A DNA stretch of 63,995 bases, filler included, from Chrysochromulina tobinii (Eukaryota), in the NCBI GenBank assembly GCA_001275005.1. It is 7 parts of 7 records of this genome, joined end to end, with 100 filler letters (N's around TTAATTAATTAA, not from the genome) between each part and the next. Parts side by side here need not be neighbours in the genome. Positions count along the whole stretch, not along the records: positions 5,941 to 22,185 come from JWZX01000807.1; positions 22,286 to 29,354 come from JWZX01000808.1; positions 29,455 to 39,466 come from JWZX01000809.1; 4 more parts are not named here. The stretch is one strand, 5' to 3'. Under the pieces are notes generated by a model. That model ran no database searches and was not told the DNA's origin. It was given only the letters and a program-made list of their open reading frames with translations. The first letter of the stretch is position 1; every line of letters starts with the position of its first letter. Position numbers and translations under genes: made by a program. This document shows, in pieces, positions 11,185 through 34,100 of the stretch.

Positions 11185-14100
11185 TTACTCCGAGTCTCGG
11201 AAGAGTCCCGGAAGGCTCAGATTGCTGCCGAGATTGTTTGACGAGGCTGCCCTTCCTAGGAGCGCACGCCGCTGCAGCGCGCCGGTACGACGCGCGATCT
11301 CCCTCACGACCTGGTTGCGCTGATCGACGGTCAGTACCCCCTCCTGCATGGCCCAGTCGATGGCCTCGAGCGCGACGCCGTCAGAGCGTACCGATGAGCG
11401 GGAGAGCATGACCGCCTGGTTGTGATGGCTGATGGTGATCGTCATCGGCTTCTTGAGCCCAAATAAGGGTTCGAGCTCAAACGGCTCACCATCGACCTGC
11501 ATGGAGCATGCGATGAGGGAGGCCATCAGCATGCAATCAGGGAGGCCATCAGCATGCAACGAGGGAGGGTCATCAGCATGTGAGGGAGGCCATCAGCATG
11601 CAATGAGGGAGGCCATCAGCATGCAATGAGGGAGGCTGCGCATGCAACGAGGGAGGCCATCAGCATGCACGAGGGAGGGCCATCAGCATGCAACGAGGGA
11701 GGCCATCAGCATGCATGAGGGAGGCCATCGACCTGCATTGGCAAGCGCGTCGTGCCCTCCTGCGTGATGGTCACTGACGAGGCTTGGCAGAGACGGTGCG
11801 CCGATCCCTTGACAAGCTGTGTGCATGCAGACACATGCAGGCGCAGTCAGGCACACTCAGAGGCAAGCATAGGCAAACAGAGGCAATCAAGAGGCAATCA
11901 AGAGGCAATCAGACATCCTCGCAGAGAATCAGAGGCCATCATAGGCAATCGGAGGCCATCAGAGGCCATCAGAGGCCATCAGAGGCATCAGAGGCCATCA
12001 GAGGCCCAAACATCTTTCATGATAAGGCAATCAAAGGCAATCACCTGCGCGAGCCCAAGCTGCAGCACGCCCTTGATGGCGACCACCTCCAGCAGCCGAT
12101 CGTCCATCGAGGCGCTGACGAACCCTGACGAAACCAGCAGCCGATCGTCCGTCAAATGCCACGACGCGTCGCTGAAGCTCTTCGTGCGAGATCGCATCCC
12201 CCCCGCAGCTCCGCCGGAGCTCCCGCCCGCGAGATCGTTGCGAGATCGCATCCCGCCCGCAGCTCCGCCGGAGCTCCCGCCCACGAGATCGTTGCCGCAA
12301 GCGCTGCCGGTGCTTCCGCTCCGCACGTGCCTCGATGTCGATGCGCCGCCGCCGCCGCCGCCGCTGCCGCCGCTGCTGCCGTTACCCCTGCTGCTGCCGC
12401 TGCTGCTGCTGCTGCACCCAAACGGGTAGACGCCGGAGGCACTCGAAGGGCGCGGCGGCCCGAAGCCAGAGCTCACGGAGCGGCCGCGCACATCCCGTCC
12501 AAAAGCGTCATCAGCATCCGCCGCCGCCGCCGCCGCCGCTGCCGAGACTGCCGCCTCGGCGTACTCGTCGGACTGGTCGGGAGAGTCCATAGAGAGTCTT
12601 CGGTCCGTAAAGTCCATGGAGCTCGGGCGAGACATGGCGCGCGCCGACAAGTTATCCCCCGACCCCCCCATGCGGACACGCGCACCGATGGTGCTGTCTC
12701 GCCCTGCCGAGCACTCCCCTCCATCGCCCCCCTCGGGGGCCAGCTGGTGCGCAGAGGCGGTGCGGGAGGGCATCCGGGACGAGGCCTGAGAGGCACGGCC
12801 GCTCGTGGAGGCTGGGGCGGCGGACGGCGACGGGTGGACTTCCTCGTCGTCATCCCACTCACCTGTGAACGAGGGGGAAGGGGCGCCGTGGTGAGCACTC
12901 GCATGCAAGGCACGGAGGTCTCGTCGTCATCCCACTCACCTCCCCACAGGTCTGTTCCACCTGCATAGGACGCTATGTTGAGCACGATGATGCCCTCTGT
13001 GCCCTCGGGCAGCTCGTACCTGCCCAGAGGTGATCCAAGGCAATCAAGTGTTCCCATTCAATCCGAACCAATGCCATGCAATCCAATGCAATCCAATGCA
13101 ATCCAATGCTCGTACCGCTTCCCATCAGCGATCACCGTCAACTTCTTGCACACATGCTTGAAATCGCGACCATGTAGCAGCTGGCGCGCGCCGTAGCGCA
13201 GGTACATGAGCTTGTTCTTGAGGACGTTTGTGAATTGGTGCGGCTCCGACTGCCAATCAGTGGCAATCAGTGGCAATCAGTGGCAATCAGTGGCAATCAG
13301 TAGCAATCAGTAGCAATCAGTAGCAATCAGGCGCGGCTCCGACTGCCAACGATTGAGCCGTTCGAGACCTCGGTCAATGGTACTCAATGGCACTCAGCCA
13401 GGGCGCTCACTCAGTGGCACTCAGTAGCAATCAGCGGCACTCAGTGGCACTTACCTGCCGACGATTATGCCATTCAAGCGCCACGTTGGCATCCACACCT
13501 GTGGGGGGGGCGCCGTGGTGAGCACTTGCATGCTTGAGGAGCGCCACGTTGGCATCCACACCTACGCCAAGGTAAATCTGCATCGTAACCGTGACTGAAT
13601 CAGTAGCAATCAGTAGCAATCAACGGTTACCTACGCCAAGGTAATTCTGCATGATGATCTTACGAGCGGGTCGACGAGTATCACTCCCGCGCTCGGGACG
13701 ACGCTCGGGAGCCGTGATCAAGCTCTTGGCCACGTGGCTCTTGGCGACGCTCTTGGCGACGCTCTTGGCGAGGCTCTTGGCGACGCTCGGGCGGGGCGGA
13801 GGGACCGTTGCGTCCTCAAAGGCCACCTGATGAGGAACGTCATCCAGAGGCACTCAGAGGCACTCAGAGGCACTCAAGGGCGTGGTACAGTCTTCGAAGG
13901 CCACGTGGTTTAAGGCGAGCCGTTCCCTTTCGTGAGGGTCATCAGTGGTCATCGGAGGGTCATCATTAGTCATCGGAGGTTCATCAGTAGTCCTTAGAGG
14001 TCCTCAGAGGTCCTCAGAGGTCCTCAGAGGTCCTCAGACGTCCTCAGAGGTCCTCAGAGGTCCTCAGAGGTCATCAGCACACCTCCCAACGATCGAGCAG

Positions 14101-14931
14101 TGCCACTTGAGCAGAGTCAACCTCCTCGAGGAGATTGACGAAACTGCGTCCCATACGAGTGCCACCGCCCCATCCGAGCGCACGCGCAAGGTCATTCCCC
14201 GTGCCCAGCGGCAAGATGGCCACGGGCGGCGTGTACTCGAGATGTGCATTGTCCAGGAGGGAGAGCACCCAGCCTACGGTGCCATCGCCCCCACACACTA
14301 AGACGCGGAAGCGGCCGACAGTGCGGAAGGACTGGAGGGCCTGCTCGGCGTGCCCCAGCGACAAGTCCACCACCTGGTGCGCCGAGAGCAGCGCCTTGAG
14401 CTGCACGAGCGTTGCCTCGCCTTGCCGACCACCGCTGCCTCGGTTGATGAAGACGAGCAGCGGCGTGCGATCTCGCGCAACCTCCGCCGAGGGGCGATAG
14501 GTCCATGAGTTCTGCCAGAGCTGCGGCTGCAACGTCGGCGTGCGCAGCTCCGCTATGCTGTGGCGCACGCGCTGCGCGAGCGACGCGGCGCTTCGCAGCC
14601 GGAGCTTCTCCGAAGCGGCTTCGGCGCCCTTGGCTGGGGGGCTCGTGGGTGGCGTCGCCTCGCCAAAGTCGAGCAGCTGCTCGGGAAGGATGAGCCGCCA
14701 GAGGCGGGCGCGCGCCTCTTCCAGCTGCCGTGGATCAAGGTCGGGCGGCGTCGCTTGCGCGTGCATGATCGAGATGAGGTAAATCAGCGCGAGCGTGGCC
14801 GTGAGGAGTGCGATTGTCATGAGTGGCGGTGGGTCCGAGATCACCACCGGCTCGGGCTGTCGCGGCCAGGCAGCCAGGTCGGCGTGTGCAAATGGAGGGC
14901 CCACCATGCCGCCGTCCGCGAGTTCGTCCAT
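11185..14931 (-). CDS. DGK: Diacylglycerol kinase, 8 exons, ~838 aa (14931-14083, 13826-13631, 13498-13455, 13249-13116, 13019-12940, 12862-12045, 11816-11733, 11496-11185)
   Basis: Motifs PLLVFINRGSGG, GGDGTVGWVL, LPLGTGNDLAR, MQNYLGVGVDA, LNIASYAGG, DDRLLEVV and PMQVDGEP; all GT-AG introns, and phases join into one frame. Confidence 0.92.
12863..12910 (-). repeat. Shared intron 3' module TGCATGC..GCTCACCACGGCGCC-Y-rich-CACAG (representative copy, DGK)
   Basis: Other copies end at acceptors 13499, 18472, 19633, 19713, 20564, 20637, 22057 (ends AAG), 31507 and 31970. Confidence 0.9.
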
Positions 14932-15156
14932 GATGCGTGTGCAAAGCCGCCCACGCGCCGCACCAGGGACCCCCCTGGAACGCGGGACGGAGAGGAAGTT
15001 GACGGGAACACGGAAGGGCGACTTTACATGAACAGAGAGAATCATCACTCTCGAATCACGTTGCAGATGGGGATGTCTGTCTAAGAGACGGTTTCTCCTC
15101 CCGAAACCGTCCTTCCCTGCAACTGCCTTGCAACCCCAACGTCTTCGTGTAACGCC

Positions 15157-16596
15157 ATGCTAACGAGGCCAGCCTTCCTCGCGCCGCTCAACGTACCAGC
15201 CATCGCCGACGCGTGCGAGACAGTGGCATTGCCAACTCACGGGTCGCGTCGGTCACGCTCTCGGCGCCAGCGCTCCAACAAGGACAACCGAGGAAGAAGC
15301 CCGTCTTCCAAGAGCGTCAAGAGTCCGTGCGCATCTCCGCAGCAGCTCATGAGCCCCGGAAGCCCCACGCCCAAAAGCCCGTCTGCCAAGAGCGTCAAGA
15401 GTCCTTGCACTGGCGCATTTCCGCAGCAGATCATGAGCTCCGGAAGTCCCACGCCCAAGTTCACCGCTAGCAACATTGGCGTACGTCTGGTGGGTGCCGA
15501 GGCGGCCTCCCTCCACACGCATGCTGCTGCCCTCGAGCGCAAGGCGGCGCGTCTCCAGCAGCGGTCCGACCAGATGGCATCGCCAGCTCGCCCGACGGTG
15601 CACGAGCTCGTCAACGAATGGCAGCGTCTGAAGCAGCGGTCGGACGAAATGATGGTCATGCATGAGCACTTGGGCACTTGGATCTCGTCGATCTCGTCGG
15701 TCCAGTCACTTCGGACCAGGGGGGATTACTCTCTCCAGCCGCATGCCGATGCACGTGAGCTGCCCCCTACGGCAGTTGAGGAAGAGCCCGAGAGTGCCGA
15801 GGCAGAGGATGCCGACGATGAGGAGTCCGCCGTGCAGATGCATCTCACGCTGACCATCCCAAACGAATGCTCAGCGCAGGATGCCGACGATGCAGGGGCA
15901 GGGCCGCGCCGCCAGTGGCAGCCGCCCAGCTGCCCGCACGCTGCCCCCAAATCCGCTCGCCGCGGTAGCCCTGCGAAGGCCGGTGAGGATGAGCGCCGTG
16001 CCGAGCGTCGTGCAGAGCGTCGTGACGAGCATCGTGACGAACCCCGAAACGAAGCCAAGGATGAGCGCCGTGACGAGCGCTATGGCGCCCACTCGCAGCT
16101 CCTTGCGCTCCAACGTCAACTGATCCGCCGTGTCGATGCCCTGGAGGGGCGCTTTTGCACCGCCCCCTGGACGCCACCCCTCGCAGCCGCCTCACCGGCA
16201 CCGGCTGCCCTAGCAGATGCCTCACCGACCGGCGCGATGGGGATGCTCACCCCCTCGTACGGCGATGGTGCCAGCTTTGGCGTCAGCGTCGAGAGCTCGC
16301 TCGATCTGACTCCGGGTGCCCGGGACGGCGCCCATGATCGCGCCCAGGACGGCGTCGAGAGCTCGCTCGATCTGACTCCGGTGGCGCACGGGACGGCGCC
16401 CGGGACGGCGCCCAGGACGGCGCCGCGCACGGTTGCTGGGCGGCAGGAGCGAATCCGACGCGCATGCAAGCTCGAGGGGATCTCGTGCGCGAAGTGGATC
16501 TCGAGAGCGATCACGCTCAGATTCGATCTCGAGGCAGCGCTGCTAAACGCGCCCATCATGGCGCCTGCTTGCACGCTCGAGCGCGGCGTGCTGTAA
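15157..16596 (+). CDS. Hypothetical low-complexity/coiled-coil protein with internal duplications
   Basis: 479-aa ORF; SPSxKSVKSPC twice and VESSLDLTP twice. Confidence 0.6.
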   Translation: MLTRPAFLAPLNVPAIADACETVALPTHGSRRSRSRRQRSNKDNRGRSPSSKSVKSPCASPQQLMSPGSPTPKSPSAKSVKSPCTGAFPQQIMSSGSPTPKFTASNIGVRLVGAEAASLHTHAAALERKAARLQQRSDQMASPARPTVHELVNEWQRLKQRSDEMMVMHEHLGTWISSISSVQSLRTRGDYSLQPHADARELPPTAVEEEPESAEAEDADDEESAVQMHLTLTIPNECSAQDADDAGAGPRRQWQPPSCPHAAPKSARRGSPAKAGEDERRAERRAERRDEHRDEPRNEAKDERRDERYGAHSQLLALQRQLIRRVDALEGRFCTAPWTPPLAAASPAPAALADASPTGAMGMLTPSYGDGASFGVSVESSLDLTPGARDGAHDRAQDGVESSLDLTPVAHGTAPGTAPRTAPRTVAGRQERIRRACKLEGISCAKWISRAITLRFDLEAALLNAPIMAPACTLERGVL

Positions 16597-17159
16597 TCAC
16601 GCTGTGTGGCGCGTGTGACCTGAGAATGACCTGAGATATTGACTCACGGTGTGCGACGCCGACACGGAGTTTGGAGTTTCTGTCGCCATCGGAAACGGGT
16701 ACATCTAGATCTACGATCTAGTCGGCTGTGGTGGAAACGCCGACCTATACGTCCATGCTATACGAATACGTCCTACCGACAACCGAGGCGCCCGCGGGCG
16801 CGGCCGGCGAGCGGCGTCCGGTCTCTAGTACCGTCTACTGTTAACGTCTACTGTACACCGATCACCGTGTACCTGTACGTCGCCGACGACGTACGGGACG
16901 ACCAGGACCACGAGCGCCTTGCGCGCAGCTCGCACCTCTACTTTTGTAAACGATTTAAGGCGGAGGGATCATCAGCGCACAGCGGTACGTTCACAGTGTC
17001 TATGACTCGCGCGTCTTCGTAACGTCTTCGCTTGACTATATGTGAGTATGATTCTCGGTGAACATCTTCGAGCATGCTTTGTACTGGTGCAGCGGGGCGC
17101 GCGTGCACACGACATCAGCTGTAAACTCGTGCGGCACGCCGGAACATATTATGATCGGA

Positions 17160-20100
17160 TTACATTGAATTCAGGAGGACGATGACCACAACTACCACGA
17201 GAACTACGCAGCACACGCCGCAGCACATGGCATACTTCTTGAAGAAGAAGAATGGGTTGAACAGATTGAAGTCGATGCCCAGCCCGTCGAAGAACGAGGG
17301 GCGCACCGGGTTCGGAAGGAACGGGTGTTGGTTTGGCGGGTCACGTCCCTGGCCCACAGGGCGCTGGATCGCCTCGTATCTCGGGATGAGCTCGATCGTG
17401 AGGCGCACCGTGCCCTGATTGCCCATGTAATTCGGGTGCGTCGTCTGCACGAGCACGTTCTCCCTCTTCACACCGCCGCCGCGCCGCAGCGCCAGTTCAC
17501 AGATGGTCTTGAGCGTCAGTTGCGCCTCGCCGATGGCGTCGTTGGACGAGAGGATGTCGGCGTCCCAGAGCTGTATGAAGAGCCTCGGCGACTTTTCGGG
17601 CAGTGCCATCGGCCAAACCATCCGCCAAAAGAACTCCGCATCTGATGAGGGAGGTCATCAAGAGGCCATCAAGAGGTGATCCAGAGGCAATCAAGAGGCG
17701 ATCAAGAGGCGATCAAGAGGCGATCAAGAGGCAATCAAGAGGCGATCCAGAGGCAATCAAGAGGCGATCAAGGCAGCACGAACCGCCAGGCGATCGGTGG
17801 TGCACGTCCGTCCTGAGCATCGAATAGGGCTGGTGGCCGTGCGGTGTGATGGCTACGAAGACGTCCGACGTGCCACCGCCGCCGAAGAAGGACTCGTCCC
17901 GCGCTTGGACGTCGATCGCATCCCACACGATGACACGCAGCTCGAACATGTCGGTGGTCGGTGGCTCGATCGGGACCATCGGCTGGGCGATCGCGTACCT
18001 GATGAGAGAGGCACTCAAAGCTGATGAGTGAGGCACACAGAGCTGATGAGGGAGGCAATCAGAGCTCATCGGCTGGGCGATCGCCTACTTCTTCTCCAGG
18101 ATCTCAATCTTGCACACGATGAAGCCCTGGAAGAGGGGCAGAGGGGCATGCGCAGGGGGGGTGAGTGGCAATCAAGAGCAATCCATCGACGGAGTGGCAA
18201 TCAATAGTAATCAATAGCAATCCAGAGCAATCAAGAGCAATCCATCGACTGAGTGGCATGGACCGGGGGGCTCAGCGGCCACCAAGAGCAACCACGTGGC
18301 ACTCCATCTCACCTGCGCGTTCGTATTGCCAGGGTTGGTGAGCGGCCGCATCTCCTTCGGCAGCGCGTCGTTCTGCTGCTTGGTCTTCCACGTCTCAGAA
18401 AAGTAGCGGTCCTCGAGGTCGATGACCGTCTTGCCCAGCAGCGATTCGCTCAGCAGCTGGTAGTCCCATACCTGTGGGGGCGGGCGCCGTGGTGAGCGCG
18501 TGCATGCTGGGGGCTGGGATCGAATCCCTCCTCGGAATCACACACCTCGAGATGTAGCCGAGATTGGGTCATCAGAGGTCATCAGAGGTCATCAGCACAC
18601 CTCGAGATGTAGCCGAGATTGGCCGGGCAGGATCGCCGACAGCTCGAAGGATTGGTAGAAATCGGGCTCGAGCGAGGGCGGCAGCGCAATGTCGCGCGTG
18701 GTGCGCTCCTGACCCTCGACGTTGTAGACCTTTAGGAAGGGCTCGGGCTCTTTTCCACCCGCCCTCGGGGCGAGTGACGTGGCGCCATACACATGCACGC
18801 GCACGCGGCACGGCTTCTCGGCGAAGAGCTTACGCAGGTTGGCCGGAGGGTCCTCTTTGAGAAAGAGCTTGAGCTCCTCATCCCCCTCATACCTGATGAG
18901 GGAAGCCATCAGAGCTGATGAGGGAGGCCATCAGAGCTGATGAGGGAGGCCATCAGAGCTGATGAGGGAGGCCATCAGAGGTCATCAGAGGCAATCAGAG
19001 CTTGAGCTCCTCATCCCCCTCATACCTGATGAGGGAGGCCATCAGAGCTGATGAGGGAGGCCATCAGAGGCAATCAGAGCTTGAGCTCCTCATCCCCCTC
19101 ATACCTGATGAGGGAGGCCATCAGAGGTCATCCGAGGCCATCCGAGGCCATCCGAGGCAATCAGAGGCCATCCGAGGTCATCCGAGGTCATCCGAGGTCA
19201 TCAGCAGTCATCCGAGGTCATCCGAGGTCATCCGAGGTCATCCGAGGTTATCCGAGGTCGTCCGAGGTCATCAGCAGCGCTCGTACTTGATGACGCGCAG
19301 CTTCATCTTGAGCAGCCCCTGGGAGCGCGCAGGCCTCCCGAATTTGATCGGGAATAAGTCGCGCGCAGTCTGCAGCCCCTTGGCGAGAAGGTTCTGCTTA
19401 TACGAGGACGTGGTCGACTCGGGTGCTTTCATCGAGAGAGGGAACAATTGGAAGGGCAGATCATCTTCGAGAAGCTTCTCCATAGGATAGGGCAAGATCT
19501 CCTCCTCTGCCGCACGCGCTTCTTCGTCCTCCTCCTCTTCGCCCCCACCCTCGTCCGGTCCATCGCCTGGCGCCGGCGCGGCGGCCGCGCCCTCCTGCAG
19601 CTCCGGCATCTCGATCGTGCGTGGCCCCAAACCTGTGGGGAGAGGGAGCGCCGTGGTGAGCATCCATTGCATGCGTGCAGCTCCGGCATCTCGATCGTGC
19701 GTGGCCCCAAACCTGTGGGGAGAGGGAGCGCCGTGGTGAGCATCAGTTGCATGCGTACCTGGCACCGGCGCGACATTCTTTCCCGCCGAGACACTGAGCG
19801 CCTTTGAGCCGTTGGTGGCGCGCGCGACCGACGAGAGGAAGAGCTCATCAAGCTTCTCCTGCGTGGACAGAGGCGGAATGCGAGCACTCAGTGGCTGAAT
19901 GCGAGCACTTAGTGGCCATCAGAGGCCATCAGCGGCCCTCAGCGGCCCTCAGAGGCCATCAGAGGCCATCAGAGGCCATCAGAGGCCATCAGAGGCCATC
20001 AGAGGCCATCAGAGGCCATCAGAGGCCATCAGAGGCCATCAGAGGTCATCAAAGGCGCTCCCTACCTCGTTAGGCGACTTGACGATTTGGAAATGGCCAC

Positions 20101-22166
20101 CCTGCACCTTCTCCTTTTTGATCTTCTCGTCCCGCTCCTTCTCCTTCTTCTGCGCCTCCTCCTCCGCCTCCTTCATCTTGCGAGCCTTGGCCTCTTTGAT
20201 CTTCGCCTGCTCTTCGGGCATGTGCTCGAGCAGGTTGATGGCCGTGATGCCCATCACCGGATCCCAGTCATCGCCCACAAACGGGATGATCTTGCCTGAT
20301 GGCAAGGGCAATCAATGGCAATCAATGGCGATCACGAGCTTGCCTGCTTCGCGCACGCGTACGCCCATCCACCCTGATGGCAATGGCCATCAATGGCAAT
20401 CAATGGCCATCAATGGCCATCAATGGCCATCAATGGCCATCAATGGCGAGCGCAAGCTTGCCTGCTTCGCGCACGCGTACGCCCATCCACGGTGTGTAGA
20501 GCTGCGGCTGCGTCGGCAGTAAGACCTTAAAGTATCGGGTCTCGAGGATGTTGATGTCCGTACCTGTGGGGAGAGGGCGCCGTGGTGAGCACTTGCATGC
20601 AAGGCCTCCGGGTCTCGAGGATGTTGATGTCCGTACCTGTGGGGAGAGGGCGCCGTGGTGAGCACTTGCATGCAAGGCCTCCGGGTCTCGAGGATGTTGA
20701 TGTCCGTACCCGTCCGAAGTTGCGTCCCCGTGATGGACGAGCCGTGGTCGGGGATGCGCCATTCACGCTCCTCGGCTTGCTCATCGCCGTACTCAAACTC
20801 AACGTATCTGATGAGGGGGGCAATCAATGATGTCATCAGCGGCCATCAGTGGCCATCAGTGGCCATCCGAGGCCATCAGAAGCCCATAGAACGTACGGCG
20901 AAGTGAGGAAGCAATCAGAAGCAATCAGAAGCAATCAGAAGCCATCCGATGCCATCAGAAGCCAATAGAACGTACGGCGAAGTGAGGAAGCAATCAGAAG
21001 CAATCAGAAGCCATCCGAAGCCCATAGAACGTACGGTGAAGTGAGGAAGACGGGAGCCCCGAGGACCTCTCGCGGTGCAATCACGGGGTAATCACGGGGT
21101 AATCACGGGGTAATCTCGTACGGCGAAGTGAGGAAGACGGGAGCCCCGAGGACCTCTCGCGGTGGCACGTCGCGACAGCCAACCAGCTGCACCTCGATCA
21201 CGTACGGCCGCATCTCGGGCCGCAGATAGCCCAGTGCACTCACGCCCTCCGTCAGATGGTACTTCGAGAGCTTCGCCGCCTGAGAGCCGCATGCACACAG
21301 TGGCACTCAGTGGGCACTCAGAGGGCACTCAGAGGGCACTCAGCGGGCACTCAGCGGGCACTCAGCGGGCACTCAGAGAGCACTCAGAGAGCACTCAGAG
21401 GGCACTCAGAGGGCACTCAGTGGCACTCAGTGGGGCAATTAGAGACGCAATCAGCGCTCCTCACCTGGGAGGAGAGGTCGACGATGGCAGCACTCTTCGT
21501 GCCATCCGGTGCGTCAAGGCTCTTGGGTGGCTGGTAAGCCCGCAGCTCGAAGGAGCAGAGAAGGAACCCGACGGGGGTCGGGTCATCATCCCCGCCAGCA
21601 TCGAAGTCGAGCTCGGCAAACTTGGGATCGTACAACGGCATCCATGTGGGCTCTCCCGCGCTCCTGATGAGGGGGGGGCAATCAGATCTCATCAGAGGTC
21701 ATCATCAGATGCAATCAACGGCATCCATGCGGGCTCTCCCGCGCTCCTGCTGTAGAAGACCGACACGTACTTAGTGTACGGCCATCAGACGCAATCAGGC
21801 GCAATCAGGCGCAATCAGGCGCAATCAGACGCAATCAGACGCAATCAGACGCAATCCGTCGCCATCAGCAGCGCAAGTACTTGTTGTAGAAGACCGACAC
21901 GTTTTTGGTGTACGGGCCGCTCGGGGCTAATGTACGCCCCATGACAGTGTCACTTGGAGCGAGGTCCTGAAGCGCAGAGAGGCCAAAAGCGGCGCCCGCG
22001 TCGTAGACGCAGACCGAGACCTTTGAGGCGAACGTGAGCTCGCCCGGGAGATGCACCTTGAGGGAGGGGAGGGGGGGTGGCGCCGTGATGAGCACATGCA
22101 TGCTGGGAGATACACCTTGAGGGCGAGCTCCCCGGGAGATACACCTTGAGGGCGAGCTGCTGGTAC
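17160..22166 (-). CDS. Ferlin-family multi-C2-domain tail-anchored protein, 3' part, at least 14 exons, 5' end truncated
   Basis: Motifs LGKTVIDLEDRYFS, FELRVIVWD, TDVHHRS..FFWRMVWP, IQLWDADILSSNDAIGE, GQGRDPPN..LPNPVRP and a C-terminal TM helix. Introns 17642-17783, 17999-18088, 18127-18312, 18472-18600, 18893-19286, 19633-19758, 19859-20065, 20296-20461 (GC-AG), 20564-20709, 20808-21121, 21280-21464, 21664-21880 and 22057-22144 give a consistent frame. Confidence 0.88.
20564..20709 (-). repeat. Intron made of two identical 73-nt units (28-nt downstream-exon copy plus 45-nt 3' module)
   Basis: Exact tandem repeat; removing it restores ...LRTG|TDINILETRYF... Confidence 0.9.
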
Positions 22167-22185
22167 CTGAGGGAGGGGAGGGGAG

Positions 22186-22285: not shown

Positions 22286-25200
22286 TGGTTCGAGCGGCCG
22301 CGCCCCCGCCGGCCGCGCCCCCGCCGGCCGCGCCCCCGCCGGCCGCGCCGCCGCCGCCGTCCGTGCCCATGCCGCCGCCGTCCGTGCCCATGCCGCGGGC
22401 CTCGTGCCCATGCCTACCTATGGCACCACCGTCCGACTCTGCCTTCAGCGGAACTGCCTTCGGTTTCATGGCTGGGGGCAATGGCGGTGGCGGCAGCGCC
22501 CCTGTGTCACCGTCGACCGCTGTCGGCGACTCTGCCTTCGGCTTCATCGCCGCCGCTGAGCCGTCACCGCCGCTGGTTTCGGCCTTCGGCTTTTTTGATG
22601 GCGGTGGCGGCAGCGCCCAGGTATCGCCGTTGGGCGGTGGCGGTTCTGCGTTCGGCTTCATAGATGCTCAGCGTGCGGCGGCTATCGCTGCGAGCCTCGA
22701 CATCTCCAGCCCTGTAAACCAAACCTTACCACCACCTTTGCAATTCTTACCACCCGCGCAATCGCCACCTATGGGGCCGTCACTGTGTGTGTGCTGAGTG
22801 ATCATCATACGTGTGCGTGTGTGTGTGCGCAGCAGCAGCAGTACGGTCAATACGGCGGCGGCGGCGGGCAGTACGGCCAGCCGCAGCAGCCGCAGTTCGC
22901 CGCCGAGCAGTACGGTCCATACGGCGGCGGCGGCGGGCAGTACGGCCAGCCGCAGCAGCCGCAGTTCGCCGCCGAGCAGTACGGTCAATACGGCGGCGGC
23001 GGCGGGCAGTACGGCCAGCCGCAGCAGCCGCAGTTCGCCCAGCCGGAGAGCAGTACGGTCAACACGGCGGCGGCGGCGGGCAGTACGGCCAGCCGCAGCA
23101 GCCGCAGGTTCGCCCAGCCGGCAACCCACGAGGTGCGCCCGATTCGCGTGCAATCAGAGGTCATCAGATGTATTCAGAGACCCTCAGCAGGCCTCACCGG
23201 CCTCAGTGGCACTCAGAGGCTATCAGAGGTCATCAAAATCAATCAGAGACCATCATTGGCGATCAGTGGCCATCAGTAGCCATCAATTGCAATCAGTGGC
23301 AATCAAGAAGGCACCGGGTTCCAAGATTGCCCCGATGGCCACGACGCGTGCTGAGCGTGCGCCGTGTGCGTGTGCGTGTGCGCGTGTTCGCAGCACTTGC
23401 AGGCGACGCCTGGGCAGTCAGCGGCGGCTGCGGCCAAGGCGGCGGCGGACAAGGCGGCGGCGGCGGCAAAGGCGCAGCAAGAGGCAGACGACGCTCAGCT
23501 TGTTGCAGCTCTCGCTGCGAGCCTCGCCATCTCCGGCCCTGTCCCACCACCTCCCCCGCCATCTCTAGCCGGACCGAGGCTGGTCATGTTGCCACTTTCT
23601 TGCCAAACGGCGGAGCGCCTCGTAGTCAACACGGATCCTCTCATGCCCCAGAGGACCCCTTCGGAGCGTATAGCAGCAGACCTCGGCATTCCAGTTGAGG
23701 ACGTACGGGCAAGCCTCGTCGCGGAGCAGGTACGGGAGGACCGCCTCGCAGTTGAGGACGTACGAGCGAGCCTCGTCGCAGTCGAGCACGGCGGGAGTGG
23801 CCCTGAGTGCGGAATGGCCTCTTCCGCCAGCGTGAGGCCGAGCTCGGAAATGTACGACGACATGGACCTCGAGGACCTGAAAGAGCTCGCTGGAAAACGT
23901 GGCATCAAAGTGGTAGGCAAAGGCTGGGCCACATGCTGCCCGCCGAACGGGAACAAAGCGGACATCATAAAGGCACTTGAAGCAGAGCCGCCTGCGCCAC
24001 CCGCGCCTCCGCCGCCGCGACCTAAGCCCCCGCCGCCGCGACCTAAGCCCCCGTCGCTCTGGGAGCCTCCGCCGCCTCCGCCACCCGCATCACCGCCGCC
24101 GAAGAAGAGGGCGTCCGTCGTGCACCTGAGCGAGCACCAGGCGCTCCCGAAACTCGTGGCGCTCGACAAGCCGCTCGTCGACGCGCTCCGCTCGAGCGCC
24201 GTCAAGCTCGTCGACGCCGACCGCATCCGCGACGGCACCATTGCAAAGATCATGCGCCGGCAGGACCTCGAACAGTTCGAGCGCGAGCGCGGAGTGCGGC
24301 TCTTCTTGTCGCCCGAGCGCTCGATCGAGGTGCACGGCAGCTACGAGCGCGAGATCGCCTCGCTGACGTACGGATGGGACACCCCCGACGGCGACGACCC
24401 GACGGGCGAGTACCTGGCCGCGGTCCGCCGGTACCTGCTGAGCGCCTTGGGCGAACACGTGAAAGGCGTCTTCTGGGACTGCCCCTGCCTGCCGCAGGAG
24501 CCGCGCAGCGCGAGCGAAGAGGCGGTGTTCGGCGAGGCGCTCGGCGTGATGGCGCTCACGTACGCGTCGGTGCTCTCGACGACGGTGATCCGGCACACCC
24601 GAGTCCCCGCCCGCCCCGCGTGTCTCGACGGGGTGGTCGTGGTTTACGGCGGCGCGGTGACCGAGCAAGACGTGCGCAGCGGGCTCGCCAGCCACGGCGC
24701 GCTCGCAAGCGTGTGGCGCGACGAGAAGGTCAACCGGTGGCGCGCGCGGTTCCAGAGCCACGCCGAGGCCGAGCGCGCGGCGGCCAGAGGGCAGGCGATT
24801 GTCAACGGCGCGACGCGCCTGCAGACGCTCCACGTCCCGCGCCCGTATGGCGCGCGCGGATGGTGCTGTGAGGAGACCGGCGTGGCCACCGAAGGGGTCG
24901 CTCAGAGTGCCTACTTTCCGAAGCTGAAGGCGATCCTCGACCGGCTGCCGCCCAAGTTGGTCGACATTGACGGCGCGGCGCCCGAGGCGGCGCGCGAGCA
25001 GTACGGTGGGAGCGAGGGCAGGGCACCTCGCATCGAGCGCGTGCGCTCGAGCATCCGGTCGGCGGCCTTTTCGAGCGAGGCCGACCGTGCGAAGGTCGTG
25101 AAGCTGTTCGATGACTACATCACCAAGATTGCCATCGCGATGGCGGGCTCGGGCGAGGGGCAGGCCGGCGAGTACGTCGGCGAGAGGAATGCGGCCGGGG

Positions 25201-25796
25201 AGATGGAGGGGCGCGGCAAGTACGTGTATGCCGACGGCGCTGTCTACGAGGGCGAGTGGAAGGCTGACAAGAAGGAGGGGCGCGGCATCTTCCGGTCTTC
25301 CAGCGGCGCCGTCTACGAGGGCTAGTACAAAGCTGGCGAGAAGGAGGGGCGCGGCATCTTCCGTTGGGCCAACGGCAACGTCTACGAGGGCGAGTACAAG
25401 GCTGGCAAGAGGGAGGGGCGCGGCATCTTCCGGTGGGCCAACGGCAACGTCTACGAGGGCGAGTACAAGGCTGACGAGAGGGAGGGGCGCGGCATTGAGC
25501 GTGCTGCCAACGGCGACGTCTACGAGGGCGAGTTCAAGGCTGGCAAGCGGGAGGGGCAAGGGACGTACCTTTGTGCCGACGGCCGCATCGAGGTGGGGTT
25601 CTACAAGGCAGGCACAAGTGTGGGTGAGCGCGAGAGCGTACTGTGGACGGCCGATGGTTGGACTGCAATCCAGGTGCAGGACGGCAAATGGGTGAAGACG
25701 ATGTCGCTCGAGGAGGCAGAGCGCCGTGTCGAGCGCCTCGGGCTGCCGATGCCCGTCCGCCGGGAGGGCAAGTGGACGGTCGGCCAGCCGGTCTGA
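22286..25796 (+). pseudogene. Multi-exon gene for a UIM / SAP-like / HET-like (with RRM-like insert) / MORN-repeat protein, with an in-frame TAG at 25323-25325; 5' exon structure uncertain
   Basis: LTYGW..DDPTG..L, VFWDCPCLPQ and PYGARGWCCEE (HET-like); about 6 YEGEYKAGxxEGRG MORN repeats; the frame continues past the TAG to 25796. Confidence 0.6.
22839..23107 (+). repeat. 69-nt coding tandem repeat (QYGQYGGGGGQYGQPQQPQFAAE), about 4 copies
   Basis: Units near 22839, 22908 and 22977, plus an out-of-phase unit at 23051. Confidence 0.85.
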
Positions 25797-25981: not shown

Positions 25982-27841
25982 ATGGTTCCCGGCTCCAGCG
26001 CCGCCGCCGCCGCCGATTGGCTAAAGCGTGCGAAGCCGGGCTACTGCAACATCACGCTCGGCCATTTGGAGGCTTCCTGCGCATTCGGCAGCCGTGGCGC
26101 CCTAGGTCTCAGCCGGGAAGCTTCCCGCACGGGTTGGAGCGCGGCGGCGGGCGAGTGCTTGGCCAAGTGCATGCGTTGCCCTCGCTGCGAGTTCATGAGC
26201 CTGAGCGTGCAGTACAACGACTGCTCGTGGTACTCAACGTGCGATCTGTCTCGACTCAACGATGCCACTGCTCAGGAGCCGGCGTTCCAGTCGGCCGCCG
26301 TCGTGCGCCGTAGCGGGCCTCGCGCGGTCCAGTCAAAGACTGGCAGGCTGCAGGCGGTGGCGCGCTCGCTCGAGGGCCTGCACTGCTTGTCGCCGTCGGG
26401 GTTGCCGATCGAGGAGCCTCATCCGCCCGCGGACCTCGCGGACCTCGAGCGTGCGATGCTCGACACGACGCGCGTGCTCAAGTTGCCGCACCACCTTCTC
26501 CGTCTCACGACGATCAACCCCGACAACGTGGGCGAAACGCTGGGCACGCTGCTCTCCGCCTTGGCCGTGCAGGCGGACGCACCGCACACGAGCTGGCAGC
26601 TCAGCTGGACGCCGTTACAGAAGCGCCCCACGCCGAAGCACGCGCTGTCGCTGCTGCGGCACATGAGCCGTTACGTGTGGCGAGCGGGCGCCCCATTCGG
26701 TTTGAGTGAGGTTAGTGGCGGGACCGTCGTCGGCTGCTACGGCGGCGTGCGCGTGGTGCAGACGTACGACTTTGCGCCGCGCGTGCGGGCCTCGTGGCGG
26801 GCGGTCGCGCAGCTCCGGGCCCTGCTGCGCCCCGCCGGCGCCGTGGTGGGCGCGTCTTCTGCGCCGCTCTCGCTGCCTGCCCACCACGGCGCGCACCACG
26901 GCGCGCACCACGGCGCGCAGCACGGCGCGCAGCACGGCGCCCAGCACGGCGCCCATCAGAGGGCATGGCAGTGGGAGCCGCCGAGGGGCCGAACGACCGC
27001 TCGCCGGATGCGTAGTCCCAATTTAGGCAAGGCCGAGCGCCCGCCGCCTCCAAAAAAGGCAAGGCCGATCGCCATCCTCTTCCAACGTCCCCGCGGACGG
27101 TCCGACAACGGGCGCGCGATCCTCAACGAGGCCGAGACGCTCTCAGCCTTAGACGCGGCGGGCTTCGAGCCTTCCCTCCTCTCGCCCTCGCAACTCTCCT
27201 TGTCTGCGCTGGCACGACGGCTTGGGTCGGCGTCGTTGCTGGTCGGAGTGCATGGCGCCGCACTGGCCCATTGTATGTGGCTGCCACGCGGCCGCTCGGC
27301 GCTCGTCGAAATCTTCCTTCCCGACCACGCGTACGGCTTGTATCCTCTCTTCGCGCGGGCTGCTGGGGTGCTTCACTTGCCGCTGCTGCTGCGTTGGCCG
27401 AGCGTTGATCGGCGGCCTGCGGCCTCGCTCAGCGCCTTCAAGGCAAGTGCGTGGGCGCGCTGGCCCGGCTACCGCAACGACTCCGTGCTTGAGCAGCTGA
27501 AGTCATGCTCGGCGTACCCGCTCAGGACGGCGCTCTACCGGTCGAATCTCTTTGAGCGCGGCCACTGCGTCGACATTGCCAAGTCGGCAGACTACACGGT
27601 CCCGTCTCATGAGCTGCGCCACGTGGCGGGGGTGGCCCTCTCGCACGTGCTGCATGCATCCTCGGCGCGCATTGGCGGCGACGGCGGCGCCGAGGACGGT
27701 GCAGAGGGCAGCGAGGGCGGCAGCGAGGGCGGCAGCGCCGGGGGCGGCGAGGGCGGCAGGCGTCGGCGGCAGCGAGGGCGGCAGCGTCGGCGGCGGCGCG
27801 CCGACGGCACTGAGCCTTCGGCCAGCGCCACTGCCCTGTGA
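25982..27841 (+). CDS. Glycosyltransferase family 61 (DUF563)-like protein with an N-terminal Cys-rich PAN/apple-like module
   Basis: RAILNEAE..L, LLVGVHGAALAHCMWLP..SALVEIF; C..CPRCEFMSLS...NDCSWYSTC. True start and end uncertain. Confidence 0.75.
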   Translation: MVPGSSAAAAADWLKRAKPGYCNITLGHLEASCAFGSRGALGLSREASRTGWSAAAGECLAKCMRCPRCEFMSLSVQYNDCSWYSTCDLSRLNDATAQEPAFQSAAVVRRSGPRAVQSKTGRLQAVARSLEGLHCLSPSGLPIEEPHPPADLADLERAMLDTTRVLKLPHHLLRLTTINPDNVGETLGTLLSALAVQADAPHTSWQLSWTPLQKRPTPKHALSLLRHMSRYVWRAGAPFGLSEVSGGTVVGCYGGVRVVQTYDFAPRVRASWRAVAQLRALLRPAGAVVGASSAPLSLPAHHGAHHGAHHGAQHGAQHGAQHGAHQRAWQWEPPRGRTTARRMRSPNLGKAERPPPPKKARPIAILFQRPRGRSDNGRAILNEAETLSALDAAGFEPSLLSPSQLSLSALARRLGSASLLVGVHGAALAHCMWLPRGRSALVEIFLPDHAYGLYPLFARAAGVLHLPLLLRWPSVDRRPAASLSAFKASAWARWPGYRNDSVLEQLKSCSAYPLRTALYRSNLFERGHCVDIAKSADYTVPSHELRHVAGVALSHVLHASSARIGGDGGAEDGAEGSEGGSEGGSAGGGEGGRRRRQRGRQRRRRRADGTEPSASATAL

Positions 27842-29788: not shown

Positions 29789-30814
29789 ATGGATTCTTTC
29801 GTCGTCACCGCCATGAGCTGTTCTCCGTCGTCGCCTCCGAGGATCATCGGGCGAGGCACGGCGCACGCAGCGATGATCTTTACCGAGCTACTACGGCAGG
29901 AACAGTATGAGATGCAGCTGGCAGCTTTAGCGAGCAGCTCGAGTTGCTCGCAAGCCACGCATAGGCGCACAAGCAGCAACTCAGAACCATTCATAGGCGC
30001 AAGCACTCGTTCACCGCGGGCGCATACTCATTCGCCGCGGACGCGTACTTCACCGCAACTCGAGAACAATCGTAGATTTTGGCGCGTCTCAAGAGTCAGG
30101 CAGAATGGCAGTGGTGCAAGGACGCCAATTCTACTTTCCGACAGCGAGGGGAGTGACGCATCTTCGCCGTCGGAGAGTCCAGGGGCCCCGGGAGGTCGAG
30201 GCCTCTCGCTCGAAGAGCTCATGGCCGCACGGTCGGAACTGACTCGGCAAATGGAACACAGGAAGGCGGCAATCGAAGCGTCAATGAAAGAGATGCAGCA
30301 GTTGCAAGACCGAATCTCGATGCTCGAGACCGTAGCTATTGCGGCACCTCAGGACATCGGCAGCAAGAGCGTCGTCGCCTGGAGATCGGCACCAACAGCG
30401 GATCGGCTCTTATGCTCGTCGCCACGCCGCGCGCGCCCTGTGGCCACAGCGACGACGGCCACAGCGACGACGGCCACAGCGACGATGGCCACAGCGACGA
30501 TGGTCACGTCGACGAGGGTCACGGCGACGATGCGTGTGCGCAGCCCGGATGAAGGCGATGGCAGCCCGGATGTAGACGATGACGTGGCACGCATGCCCGC
30601 AGGTGCACTTCCACGATGCAGGTCGCGCGAGAAAGAGCTGGCCCGCGCGAGCTCGCGCACGGTCTCGAAGGTTCTGACGGGCCTGACGGATCTTGCCGTG
30701 ACGCTTGCCCAAGCGCGACCCAAGGCCGGATCACATGTAGAGCATGATGTAGATGGTCACACACCATCCAGTGTCATTGACACAACCACCGTGTTCGTAA
30801 CTATTCCGGCGTAG
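29789..30814 (+). CDS. Hypothetical protein with a short coiled coil and a TAT repeat
   Basis: 341-aa ATG-started ORF. Confidence 0.5.
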   Translation: MDSFVVTAMSCSPSSPPRIIGRGTAHAAMIFTELLRQEQYEMQLAALASSSSCSQATHRRTSSNSEPFIGASTRSPRAHTHSPRTRTSPQLENNRRFWRVSRVRQNGSGARTPILLSDSEGSDASSPSESPGAPGGRGLSLEELMAARSELTRQMEHRKAAIEASMKEMQQLQDRISMLETVAIAAPQDIGSKSVVAWRSAPTADRLLCSSPRRARPVATATTATATTATATMATATMVTSTRVTATMRVRSPDEGDGSPDVDDDVARMPAGALPRCRSREKELARASSRTVSKVLTGLTDLAVTLAQARPKAGSHVEHDVDGHTPSSVIDTTTVFVTIPA

Positions 30815-31100
30815 TAGTGTATCTCATAGATACGCGAATTTATTGTGTTACACTAGTGACGTCTTTGTGCACTTTCGACTTTGGCCGAACCGCGCGCGTC
30901 GCGGAAGCCGGAACGCCTCCCGCTGAGCGATATTTTTACACCGATTTCAGCCCGCTCTAGCGCTGTTCCTGTGCGAGTACCGAGCACTTCAGGGCGCTCT
31001 TCGTCTAACGTCTTCCAACATACGATACAGCTGAATGGCTCCACTTACTGCAGTGGGCAATGACGACTCCGCTTGACGGTTCACGAGACTTGGTTGCGAG

Positions 31101-34100
31101 TTACGCTGAGTTACGCCGTAGGTGCACTGCGTCAATGTGCGCCATGAGCCGCTCCTCCATGGCCCGTTGCGAGGCATCATGGGCGAAACGTTCATCATGG
31201 AGCAGTCGCTTCACCCGCCGTTCGGTGTCCAGCGCCCGGCCCAACCAGCCCTCGTCCACGTCGTTTTCACGCTCCTCCTCATCAGGGTGGCCGCGCATGC
31301 GGATGGCCGCCTGCAGCCTTCCCCACAAGCTCTTCGGATGCTCGTCAGGTGGCGCGTGCTCCTCCACGAGCCGTTGGTAACTCGCGCCGTCGTGGGCACG
31401 GTCGGCGTGCGATCGGAGAAGTCCGGAGATTGCCTCGAGCTCCGCCGCGAGATCGAGGCGAGCGCGCCGAAAGAGAACATGGGATCGGACGATGGCGTAG
31501 TCGTACCTGTGGGGAAGCGGGGCGCCGTGGTGAGCGCATGCATGCACGTTACGCCTGGCGGAGCCGGCTGTGGGCGTAGTCGTACGAGTCTGAAACGACC
31601 GCGATCAGGATGTTGAGGAGCATGATCATCACGATGAAGGTGTACGCTAGGAAGAGGCCGACTAGGAAGGGTGTCTGGAACCACTCGCGCTCAAAGTCGC
31701 CAATCATCAGCCGGTAGACCGAGATGAGCGTCTCCGACACGGACACGAAGGCCACATCGACGTCGTCCTCGCCCACCACCACGTCCTCGACGCCTTCGTC
31801 GGCACGAACCAAGGGGCGCGCCGAGCCTCCGTCGGCCTCGAACGGCTGGCCCAGACGTCCTCTGTACGCGAGGATGTAGAACATGTTGCCGAAGGCGAGC
31901 ATCACGAGGAGCATGATGACCAAAAACGAGCGGATATCTAGAGCGATCTGCACGAGGCACAGGACGTACCTGTGAAGAAGCAGGGCGCCGTGGTGAGCGC
32001 ATGCATGCATGGTCGGATATCTAGTGCGATCTGCACGAGGCACAGGACGTACGTGGCAAACTTCTGGTTGATCACTTTGACGAATTTCAGCAGCTCGAGG
32101 TAAAGCAACCCCTGGGTCACCGCGGCCAGTGGCGCCAGGTACTCGTGCTCGATCCGTACAGGCTGCGTGGCCATCTTGGCCGTGAGCGCGAGGGCGCCTA
32201 CCAGGAGCAACCCGAGCAGATTTTGGAAGTCGGAGAGCCAAGCGAGGGCTGAGAGGGATTTGGACGGCGGCTCAGGCGCATCCGGCAGGTCCGCAGGCGT
32301 CAGGACGCCCTGTATCTGTGCGGCGTGCTCGCCGAGATGGTGCATCGAGAATGCCTGCAACAGCTCGCGCAGCAGCCGCACGCCACTGAGAGCCCCTACT
32401 GTGGCGACGAGCGCGCTGTCGAGCGGGCCGAGCGGGCCGTCATATCGCAATACACGCGGCCAGAGGGGTGTGGTGATCGCGAGCAGCGCGAGGATCCCCA
32501 CACCGTCCAGGAGCAGGACGGCCATCGAGAGTGGCCGGGTGAGCTTGGCGTCGAGCACCGCCACGAAGAGATCGGCTCGGACGAGGCGCTCGGTGTCGGA
32601 GGCACTGAGCGCGAGTGTTGCTGGGACGAGTCCATCGAGTGCGATCGCCTTCGCCTCGAGCGCATGCCGTTGCACGCGCGTCATCGGCGCTTCGGACACC
32701 TGCTCAATGAAGAAGATGGCTGCCTGCTGCGAGCGCTGCCCGCCCGCGCCAGCGCCCGATAACCGCCTGACCAGCCACGTGTTGTCGACGTAGTCGAGTG
32801 CCATGTGCTGTACCAGAATCTGTTGGACCGCCGGCAGCGAAACGAGCTCAGCACGCTTGGCGACACTAGGCATGTCGAGCACGGCTGCGACGATGGTAGA
32901 TAGCGGCGGCTTGAACTTATGCGCCGACGGTGCTGACGACACTTCTTCCTGAGCTGCGCCGGCGTCGACGGCCTCTTCCGGCGATGCTGTCGTGAGCGTG
33001 GGTACCACCACGCCAGAGCCCACGCCGGCGCCCATGCCGGCGCCCACGTCAGCACCGCCGCCGGTGGCGGCGCGGGATGGTGTATCGGTCAGCACCACGG
33101 CGAGTCCGGCGGCGCGAAGGTGGCTGCTTGCGCTCCTGCCGCCAGCCTCTCCACCTCCACCGCCTGCTGCGCTGCTCCCAGCGGCGACGCCGCCGAAGGA
33201 TGCGAGAAAGTCGAGCACGGGTACTCCGCGACGGAAGCGTCCAAAGAGTACCCTCTCGATCGCTTGCTTTCGCTCGCGCAGCCTCGCCAAGTTCGCGCCG
33301 CCGCCGCCACTGCCGTCGCCGTTGCTGCCGCCGTCTCTCTTGCCGCCACGTTTGCTCGCTCTCGCATTCCTCCTCTCCGCAATCCTCTCTCGGATCCTTT
33401 CGGATGCGCTGCTCGCCGTAGGCTTGGCACCCACCCGAGTCCACACGGTAGGCCGGTAGAATGGCGCCGCGTCGAGCACGCCCCCCACAACGCCCCCGAC
33501 TCCCCCAACGACGCCCCCCACGACAGAGCCAACGCCCCCCACAACGGCACCCAAAGCATTGACCCCCCCCAGCCCCGTGCGTTGAGTGGTCAGCAGTGGA
33601 CGGTTGCTGTTCATCGAGTTGTACAACGTCTCCTCCTCCCAGCAGTCGCGCTCCTTGCAGTACTGGAATTGCGCGCCGTGGCCGCACCAGCCGGGCACCA
33701 CGCACCACGTCGGCGTCTTCACGATCACAGGAGGACCCTCTGGCCTCGCTCTCTCGTCCAGGCGGTGGCGGTGGTTGACGAGCTGGAGCTCGCCATTCAC
33801 AAAGTCCGCAATCCAGTCCTCCGACAATAGGCCCCGCACACCTCCTGGTGTGCTGAAGCGCCCGTCACTAGCTATCGGCTCCTCCTCTACGCTACTCGGC
33901 TCGCGGACAACGATGGCGTCGAAGTCGGGGGCGTTCTCGTCCGGGTGGCCTATCCGCAGCGTGTTCTCACGCGCCTTGCTGAAGGTGAGAGTGACGCGAT
34001 GGATGCCGATGATGATGGACTTTTGGGCCTTGGGGTTGCCCGTACGTGGGAAGCTGATGAGCTCCTCAGGCCCCTCGTTCAGCGAAACGTACGCGTCGCG

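What the first reader, a model, noticed from the sequence alone, without database searches (positions are those of the whole stretch)
12863..32052. One ~40-nt acceptor module ends 10 intron units in three unrelated genes on two contigs
Seen: TGCATGC(n)GCTCACCACGGCGCC(Y-rich)CACAG ends exactly at AG positions 12863, 13499, 18472, 19633, 19713, 20564, 20637, 22057 (variant), 31507 and 31970, always on the sense strand. It contains a CTCAC branch-point-like motif and a pyrimidine tract. It has no terminal inverted repeats or polyA, and usually no donor of its own, because the donor comes from the duplicated exon GT. Inference: a mobile half-intron (acceptor cassette) that becomes a complete intron through its target duplication.
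Basis: partly seen in the sequence, partly recalled or inferred. Interest (0 to 1): 0.88.

Follow-up and report, generated by a model that had tools for sequence, protein, structure and literature searches.

The report
Alga builds introns from copied halves
In the alga Chrysochromulina many small introns consist of a short duplicate of the gene's own coding sequence plus a 40-letter end piece shared with other introns, and they likely arise when DNA repair copies that end piece from an existing intron into a new place, which would multiply introns without any jumping gene.

Summary
In detail: all ten modules end at the stated AGs, on the sense strand, in eight introns of three genes of a Chrysochromulina parva/tobinii-type haptophyte. 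RNA contigs splice two of these introns out exactly, using the GT of the duplicated exon start as donor. In 142 public loci plus the window, 108 of 146 acceptor modules follow a copy of the next exon's start (controls 0-5). The 22057 intron is absent from 26 of 27 homologous sequences, so it looks like a recent gain. The evidence goes against one master cassette. Tracts are nearly all unique, neighbours share rare variants, and 22057 appears copied from the intron 22 nt upstream. Two copies elsewhere match ordinary introns of unrelated genes, exon letters past the AG included, with short homologies at their joints. Best reading: microhomology-guided repair synthesis copies intron 3' halves from unspliced junctions and duplicates the target; each new intron becomes a new template. 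The enzyme and the template (DNA or pre-mRNA) are untested. An introner survey lists 0 families for C. tobinii; nine literature searches and two look-ups in this scan's notes found no description.

The parts
12863..12939 (-). 77-nt intron in the diacylglycerol kinase gene: 20-nt copy of the next exon's start (GT donor, 12939-12920), 13 nt of other sequence, module 12906-12863
   Evidence: sequence; frame open after excision; RNA contigs cover the downstream exon 12552-12842; the joint itself was not displayed
13499..13630 (-). DGK intron; module 13533-13499; contains an internal copy of the exon-exon junction and a 10-mer array; donor at 13630 is not the exon copy
   Evidence: no RNA joint displayed
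18472..18600 (-). ferlin intron; module 18507-18472; duplicates the upstream exon end, not the downstream one
   Evidence: RNA contig length arithmetic fits exactly (198 nt)
19633..19758 (-). ferlin intron with two modules (19754-19713, 19674-19633) separated by a 37-nt copy of the next exon; distal AG used
   Evidence: RNA contig length arithmetic fits exactly (101 nt); 80-nt tandem
20564..20709 (-). ferlin intron made of two identical 73-nt units (exon copy + module 20673-20637, 20600-20564); one unit only in homologue L073
22057..22144 (-). 88-nt polymorphic ferlin intron; module 22103-22057 carries the rare variant of the upstream neighbour's module; three inferred microhomology switches; AAG acceptor
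   Evidence: absent in L073 and in 26 of 27 homologous ORFs; present in DNA run X7 at about half depth; splicing not seen
31507..31585 (-). 79-nt intron: 13-nt exon copy (GT donor) + 27 nt + module 31545-31507
   Evidence: spliced out in RNA contigs of X12, X13 and X14
31970..32052 (-). 83-nt intron: 39-nt exon copy (GT donor) + 5 nt + module 32008-31970
   Evidence: spliced out in RNA contigs of X13 and X14
11300..14930 (-). host gene 1: diacylglycerol kinase (3' end not mapped)
   Evidence: PF00781
17161..22166 (-). host gene 2: ferlin, 3' part, 13 introns in the window, 4 ending in the module
   Evidence: PF16165 and C2; spliced model
31104..36518 (-). host gene 3: PH-domain membrane protein; its only two introns both end in the module and share a rare spacer (2 of 146)
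   Evidence: PF00169
18893..18914 (-). example of a second acceptor-half family ending CCTCATCAG (also ending at 13827, 17642, 20808, 21664 and, on plus, 62660)
   Evidence: same duplication anatomy in 17 of 38 sites against controls of 3-8

Best explanation
These are young spliceosomal introns whose 5' half is a duplicate of the next exon's first 10-47 bases and whose 3' half is a branch-point/acceptor piece shared among introns, likely copied from an existing intron by microhomology-guided repair synthesis. Shown: the two-part anatomy, exact splicing of two such introns, a presence/absence polymorphism, and near-identical blocks shared between introns of unrelated genes. Inferred steps: (1) a nick or break in an exon is repaired by a polymerase that extends the end, switches by 4-6 matching bases onto the unspliced 3' end of another intron (a neighbour or a distant gene; genomic DNA more likely than pre-mRNA), copies about 40-90 nt, and switches back upstream of where it left, duplicating the target. 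(2) When the return falls at a G|GT[AG] site that resembles both the source's AG|GT junction and a donor, the first copy supplies the donor, the insert supplies branch point and AG, and the mRNA is unchanged, so the event survives; other exonic outcomes would be purged. (3) Each new intron is a new template, so the module would spread as a copying network with no transposase, no element ends and no master copy. The core is probably held by recent common descent plus selection on the branch site.
For: Anatomy: 89 of 158 acceptor-like modules have an ungapped exon copy anchored at the AG (swapped controls 0-2), and 85 of these 89 introns are 55-99 nt. With gaps it is 108 of 146 unique sites (controls 0-5), 89 of them starting exactly at the AG. 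Donors are selected sites: -1 G 77%, +3 purine 93%, +5 G 65% in 74 donors, against 24%, 51% and 30% at 1218 exonic GTs. RNA: joints skipping 79 and 83 nt with GT..AG ends. Recent gain: 22057 is missing in L073 and in 26 of 27 homologous ORFs, including a more divergent cluster. Copying in cis: the 22057 variant occurs once in 217 modules but is also read in the ORFs through the upstream intron; neighbours share rare spacers in 10 of 89 pairs against 3.2 expected (p 0.003) and the 4 nt before the core in 14 of 89 against 4.9 (p 0.0014). Copying in trans: a myosin-gene junction (L098) matches L117 over 59 nt without mismatch, 13 nt of it past the AG; an ankyrin-like junction (L075) matches L132 over about 85 nt with three mismatches, lying antisense inside a kinesin intron. 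Both inserts are flanked by a target repeat and by short homologies. Many X copies contain module fragments entered at matching bases.
Against: Only three events are resolved to a source, and for the 22057 source the module is read from protein translations, not DNA. A blind repair process should leave many neutral copies, yet the window has none in about 11.5 kb of intergenic DNA, 67 of 70 flank modules are co-oriented, and only two are clearly antisense (L132, L137); a gene-directed bias is needed and is unexplained. The core is only 5.3% diverged from consensus, about the 4.7% between exon and its copy, which also fits copying from one pristine template. Mean module distance within contigs is not significantly lower (p 0.08), three of the shared-variant pairs come from one contig, and neighbours do not share the five bases after the AG more than chance (6 of 89, p 0.27). 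The one antisense copy in L137 ends exactly at the AG. No polymerase was identified. Absence of these introns in other haptophyte species was not tested.
Confidence: 0.62

Rival explanations
1. Same copying network, but driven by a reverse transcriptase that primes at a DNA nick on unspliced pre-mRNA just downstream of a 3' splice site and jumps back to the target.
For: Explains the strong gene and sense bias (147 of 158; 67 of 70), the preference for neighbours, a fixed 3' and ragged 5' end and variable 10-47-nt duplications. Exon carry-over fits pre-mRNA as well as DNA.
Against: An antisense copy from another gene exists (L132); the 22057 event needs three short local switches, more like DNA synthesis; no polyA and no partner retroelement seen. 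An excised lariat is excluded as template for the two copies that carry exon letters.
Confidence: 0.2
2. A non-autonomous element with one master copy inserts with a long target duplication.
For: Core divergence (5.3%) matches exon-copy divergence (4.7%), with losses mainly at CpG. Two 5' extensions recur in 13 and 8 of 212 copies. 'Co-opt 5', carry 3'' introners are listed for Emiliania and Pavlovales.
Against: 67 of 80 junctions do not fit one 5' extension; tracts nearly all unique; copies with a perfect duplication are no closer to consensus than others (rho -0.06, n 56; weak test, since most cores were found by exact match); traceable sources are ordinary introns. The only viral-collection hit with module anatomy looks like a chimeric contig.
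Confidence: 0.12
3. An extended splice consensus in old introns, with local duplications that only lengthen them.
For: Branch-region C and A are nearly invariant; three of eight window introns have a donor other than the exon copy; tandem units and repeat arrays do expand existing introns.
Against: Upstream and downstream coding frames join at the exon copy's GT in 57 of 68; 130 of 158 exons begin with GT; 22057 is absent in homologues; only 4 of 13 ferlin introns carry it; identical blocks extend into exon sequence of unrelated genes.
Confidence: 0.05
4. Assembly artefact from short reads across repeats.
For: 22057 lies near a contig end; identical tandem units could be mis-expanded; L157 shows that chimeras occur.
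Against: RNA contigs skip the inserts; DNA run X7 has an independent contig across 21828-22185 without differences; the anatomy recurs in many assemblies.
Confidence: 0.01

Closest known systems
[quoted passage not shown]
   Same: Repeated sequence that makes precise new introns; acceptor carried, donor taken from the target.
   Different: There the element spans nearly the whole intron, with short duplications (4 bp in Symbiodinium; '10bp terminal direct repeats' in fam24) and, in Symbiodinium, terminal inverted repeats. Here about half the intron is a variable 10-47-nt target copy, there are no element ends, and sources are ordinary introns. The marine Chrysochromulina sp. introner in that paper is the mirror case (carries 5', co-opts 3', 4-bp duplication). 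C. tobinii is listed with 0 families.
Intron gain by tandem genomic duplication of AGGT (PMC3443670, passages)
   Same: Duplicated exon sequence supplies a splice site and the coding sequence is unchanged.
   Different: In that model both sites come from the duplicate. Here only the donor does (AG precedes it in 41% of 74); branch point and AG come from an inserted piece of another intron.
[quoted passage not shown]
   Same: Insert flanked by direct repeats, attributed to repair of staggered breaks.
   Different: Repeats there are short and the one traced insert was mitochondrial; here inserts form a family copied from other introns, so the process can feed itself.
Templated insertions of SD-MMEJ / polymerase theta, and 10-1000-bp repair duplications in rice (PMC7407515, passages)
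   Same: Microhomology at joints, tandem duplication, templates near the break or ectopic, several switches in one event.
   Different: In the passages read these are not tied to serial intron creation; enzyme dependence is untested here.
Sister introns and stwintrons of Hypoxylaceae (PMC8469720, passages)
   Same: Recently proliferating introns, strain-specific gains, repair-based model discussed.
   Different: Whole introns with long inverted repeats, inserted seamlessly with no duplicated splice sites.

Membership tests
Introner (Gozashti et al. definition) | Introns similar to each other at both 5' and 3' ends | tested here: not met
   5' halves are copies of each host exon; the both-ends rule is in section 20 of the preprint
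Introner (Gozashti et al. definition) | Insert is spliced out precisely | tested here: met
   two joints in RNA contigs; two more by length
Introner (Gozashti et al. definition) | Recent gain at new positions | tested here: inconclusive
   one polymorphic site; no other-species orthologue DNA was available
DNA-transposon introner (MITE type) | Terminal inverted repeats | tested here: not met
   module ends are not complementary (sequence); no fold better than shuffles in 4 modules and 2 whole introns
DNA-transposon introner (MITE type) | Fixed short target-site duplication | tested here: not met
   10-47 nt, continuous distribution
Non-LTR retroposon / SINE | Variable target duplication with ragged 5' end | tested here: met
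Non-LTR retroposon / SINE | One master sequence with a fixed 3' tail | tested here: not met
   tracts unique; no common 5' extension; exon carry-over past the AG; no Rfam match
Non-LTR retroposon / SINE | Autonomous partner sharing the 3' end | not testable with these tools
   no genome held
Tandem-duplication intron gain | Donor from the duplicated exon | tested here: met
Tandem-duplication intron gain | Acceptor and branch point also from the duplicate | tested here: not met
   AG and branch motif lie in the inserted module
Intron transposition by reverse splicing of a lariat | Whole intron inserted, no target duplication, no exon sequence | tested here: not met
   half intron, long duplication, exon carry-over
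Templated insertion (SD-MMEJ / polymerase theta type) | Insert traceable to a nearby or ectopic template, with microhomology at the joints | tested here: met
   three resolved events: 22057, L098/L117, L075/L132; not shown for the bulk
Templated insertion (SD-MMEJ / polymerase theta type) | Dependence on the repair polymerase | not testable with these tools
   needs genetics

The most novel reading that the evidence does not exclude
A selfish replicator with no enzyme, ends or master: the acceptor half of ordinary introns is a sequence that gets itself preferentially copied by host repair into donor-like exon sites, turns the repair duplication into its missing 5' half, and has seeded thousands of new introns genome-wide in Chrysochromulina. 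A second family (CCTCATCAG) does the same. This would be a burst mechanism of intron gain independent of transposons and invisible to introner screens.
Probability: 0.4. Interest if true: 0.93.

Novelty: new variant of a known kind. Interest (0 to 1): 0.82.

Why it matters
The 2025 introner survey states that transposon-derived introners are the only mechanism able to explain bursts of intron gain (PMC12130899, passage), and it scores C. tobinii as having none. Its forerunner's method needs similarity at both intron ends, which these half-copied introns fail. If the reading holds, repair-type copying alone can produce mass intron gain, and every event records its own history: the target copy dates it, and the flanks name the source intron. 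Segregating gains in a culturable alga with public genomes make the open question of how spliceosomal introns arise and spread directly testable. The G|GT[AG]CG target also gives a concrete origin for proto-splice sites. A rough count (10 per 64 kb over a 59-Mb genome) suggests thousands of copies, biased upward because the window was chosen for them.

Tried and rejected
Whole-genome count: no genome is held and the contigs behind the loci are not searchable, so copy number and intergenic share are estimates. Master element or small RNA: Rfam gave 0 hits in the window. In viral contigs 4 of 5 hits are chance matches and the fifth (L157) looks like a phage contig joined to algal DNA; a stricter pattern gave 0. 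The 9 hits in prokaryote genomes were taken as chance and not examined. Structure: modules fold no better than shuffles; the CCTCATCAG family forms a small hairpin, z -2.1. Single-consensus 5' microhomology: only 11 of 80. Loss of AG from the intronic exon copy: not seen (4 lost, 8 gained). Direction of mismatches near the junction: no bias. Age correlation between module and duplication: none. Shared bases after the AG among neighbours: none. Intergenic test by codon score: 40 of 191 modules had no flank above threshold, but by eye these lie mostly in intron-rich genes, so the test is uninformative. Other-population DNA run X18 gave only module-sized matches on gene 3, no orthologue. Rows dropped before counts: 12 of 229 modules lacked flank or a near AG; five loci judged chance matches were left out (L013, L079, L111, L115, L138) but are inside the counts; ten overlapping loci were dropped; tandem units and repeats of one site were collapsed (158 to 146; 89 to 80). 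Parts of the output were cut from view and not read.
Full report
Setting. The window is seven contigs joined by N linkers. A single-exon BCS1 gene on another contig of the window is 99.8% identical to a protein labelled Chrysochromulina parva and 63% to Emiliania huxleyi, so the organism belongs to the C. parva/tobinii group of haptophytes. No whole genome was held.

Observation. All ten modules exist and end at the stated positions, far above chance (17 matches against 0.62). They lie in eight introns of a diacylglycerol kinase, a ferlin and a PH-domain membrane-protein gene. RNA contigs skip 31507-31585 (three runs) and 31970-32052 (two of three runs) with GT..AG ends; in both, the GT is the first base pair of the duplicated exon start. 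For 18472 and 19633 the unlisted parts of two RNA contigs have exactly the lengths the gene model predicts (198 and 101 nt); the AG at 19713 is skipped in that contig. In three of the eight introns the donor is not the exon copy, so the module also extends or ends introns of other build.

Bulk anatomy. With the window these hold 229 modules; 217 had flank and a near AG, 158 were acceptor-like, 136 of 217 end in CACAG, and 130 of 158 are followed by GT. A copy of the next exon's start precedes the module in 89 of 158 without gaps (controls 0-2) and 108 of 146 unique sites with gaps (controls 0-5); 89 of the 108 begin exactly after the AG. Copies are 10-47 nt and differ from the exon at 69 of 1477 sites; 35 of 80 are perfect. 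Of 89 introns, 85 are 55-99 nt; the upper limit may partly reflect short-read assembly. Donor sites are strongly selected relative to exonic GTs. A codon model (34 of 36 correct on held-out ferlin pieces) of 158 sense, and coding frames join across the excision in 57 of 68. Among 70 modules not used as search seeds, 67 are co-oriented with the seed, the right core differs from consensus at 5.3% of sites, mostly at CpG, and the branch-region C, C and A are nearly invariant.

Recent gain. Locus L073 is a homologue of the ferlin region from another assembly. It lacks the 22057 intron, has one unit at 20564 and lacks a duplication near 21118. Of 27 listed homologous ORFs covering the site, 26 read straight through and one has the intron (four cluster members were not listed, and the records are not independent). 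A more divergent cluster also lacks it, so one gain is simpler than several losses. DNA run X7 holds the intron-bearing contig at depth 19 against 28-43 for seven other listed pieces, which fits a segregating allele.

Where the copies come from. The 22057 module has a variant found once in 217 modules, and the ORFs that run through the upstream intron spell the same variant and a similar tract. The insert can be built from the empty site by three switches at 4-6 matching bases; this reconstruction is inferred. The two introns of gene 3 share a spacer found in 2 of 146. Across loci, neighbours share rare spacers and upstream bases more than within-assembly permutations allow (p 0.003 and 0.0014), although mean distance is not significantly lower (p 0.08). 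Two distant pairs are more telling. L117 carries 59 nt identical to a myosin-gene intron end in L098, with 13 nt past the AG, of which 6 also belong to the target repeat. L132 carries about 85 nt of an ankyrin-like gene's junction (L075; identified by eye, no Pfam hit), about 25 nt of it past the AG, inserted antisense in a kinesin intron. These pairs come from different assemblies, and the true source may be a paralogue. L128 and L135 share a further internal block of unknown direction. So at least some templates are unspliced junctions of ordinary genes, not lariats or a master. Tract length also varies between strains at one orthologous intron, so slippage adds to tract diversity.

Mechanism. 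I favour microhomology-guided repair synthesis that duplicates the target and inserts a copied intron end, with survival of the events that make a precise intron (0.62). A reverse transcriptase acting on pre-mRNA explains the gene and sense bias better and is the main rival (0.2). A single-master element keeps 0.12, because core divergence equals duplication divergence. Unexplained under the favoured model: the scarcity of neutral copies and the conservation of core positions outside the branch site. A second acceptor family ending CCTCATCAG shows the same anatomy (17 of 38, controls 3-8), and 10-mer arrays of branch-like words run on the module's strand (266 against 7).

Literature. Nine searches found no description of these introns; the library lacks most subscription papers. 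Seen: 10.1101/2022.06.06.494994, passages and section 20; PMC9860276, supplement search, file cut; PMC12130899, passages, 12 of 14 supplement files searched, haptophyte rows of file 8; PMC4580454, passages; PMC11282704, first fifth; PMC3443670, PMC8469720 and PMC7407515, passages. The scan's own notes had nothing on this sequence and only unrelated word matches.

Verdict. A real and active intron-making process that combines known ingredients (target duplication, templated repair insertion, intron copying) in a form I did not find described: new variant of a known kind, interest 0.82, with a 0.4 chance that it is a transposon-free burst mechanism.

Noticed in passing
window 13827, 17642, 18893, 20808, 21664 (minus), 62660 (plus); 38 unique sites in window and loci: Second acceptor family ending CCTCATCAG; forms a small hairpin and shares its 5' stem with one extension of the module; same exon-duplication anatomy.
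   Followed up: partly
window 11505-21868, many introns: Arrays of 10-11-nt units built on CTGAT/CTGAG words, nearly always on the sense strand, with copy number differing between strains.
   Followed up: partly
window 23153-23305: One such 10-mer array lies antisense inside an apparent intron of a plus-strand gene.
   Followed up: no
window 26837-26953: Six 12-nt units resembling the module core on the sense strand, ending near CCATCAG, with an inverted copy just upstream; in frame, so it may be coding or a degenerate intron.
   Followed up: no
window 13499-13630, 21664-21880, 18472-18600: Introns that contain a copy of the upstream exon end or of the whole exon-exon junction, suggesting a mirror process in which the insert supplies the donor.
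   Followed up: partly
window 20461 and 22057-22056: A GC donor is needed to keep the ferlin frame; the polymorphic intron has an AAG acceptor and a Tyr-to-His change in the second codon after it.
   Followed up: partly
L038, L067 (offsets): Some modules are followed by 6 extra bases before the duplicated sequence, which would add or replace two codons: possible imprecise gains carrying source exon.
   Followed up: no
L137:455-500: An antisense module inside an intron, still ending exactly at its AG before a short target repeat.
   Followed up: partly
module core: The commonest spacer makes a GC-type donor-like word and a 10-nt palindrome at the module's 5' end; any role is untested.
   Followed up: no
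window 25323-25325: In-frame TAG inside a MORN-like repeat region (by eye) of the plus-strand gene.
   Followed up: no
window 58567-59300 (minus): Reading frame that looks by eye like a retrotransposon gag fragment; it holds no module; not searched.
   Followed up: no
L157 (IMG/VR record): Phage-like contig whose last ~350 bases look like algal intron-bearing DNA; probably a chimeric assembly.
   Followed up: yes
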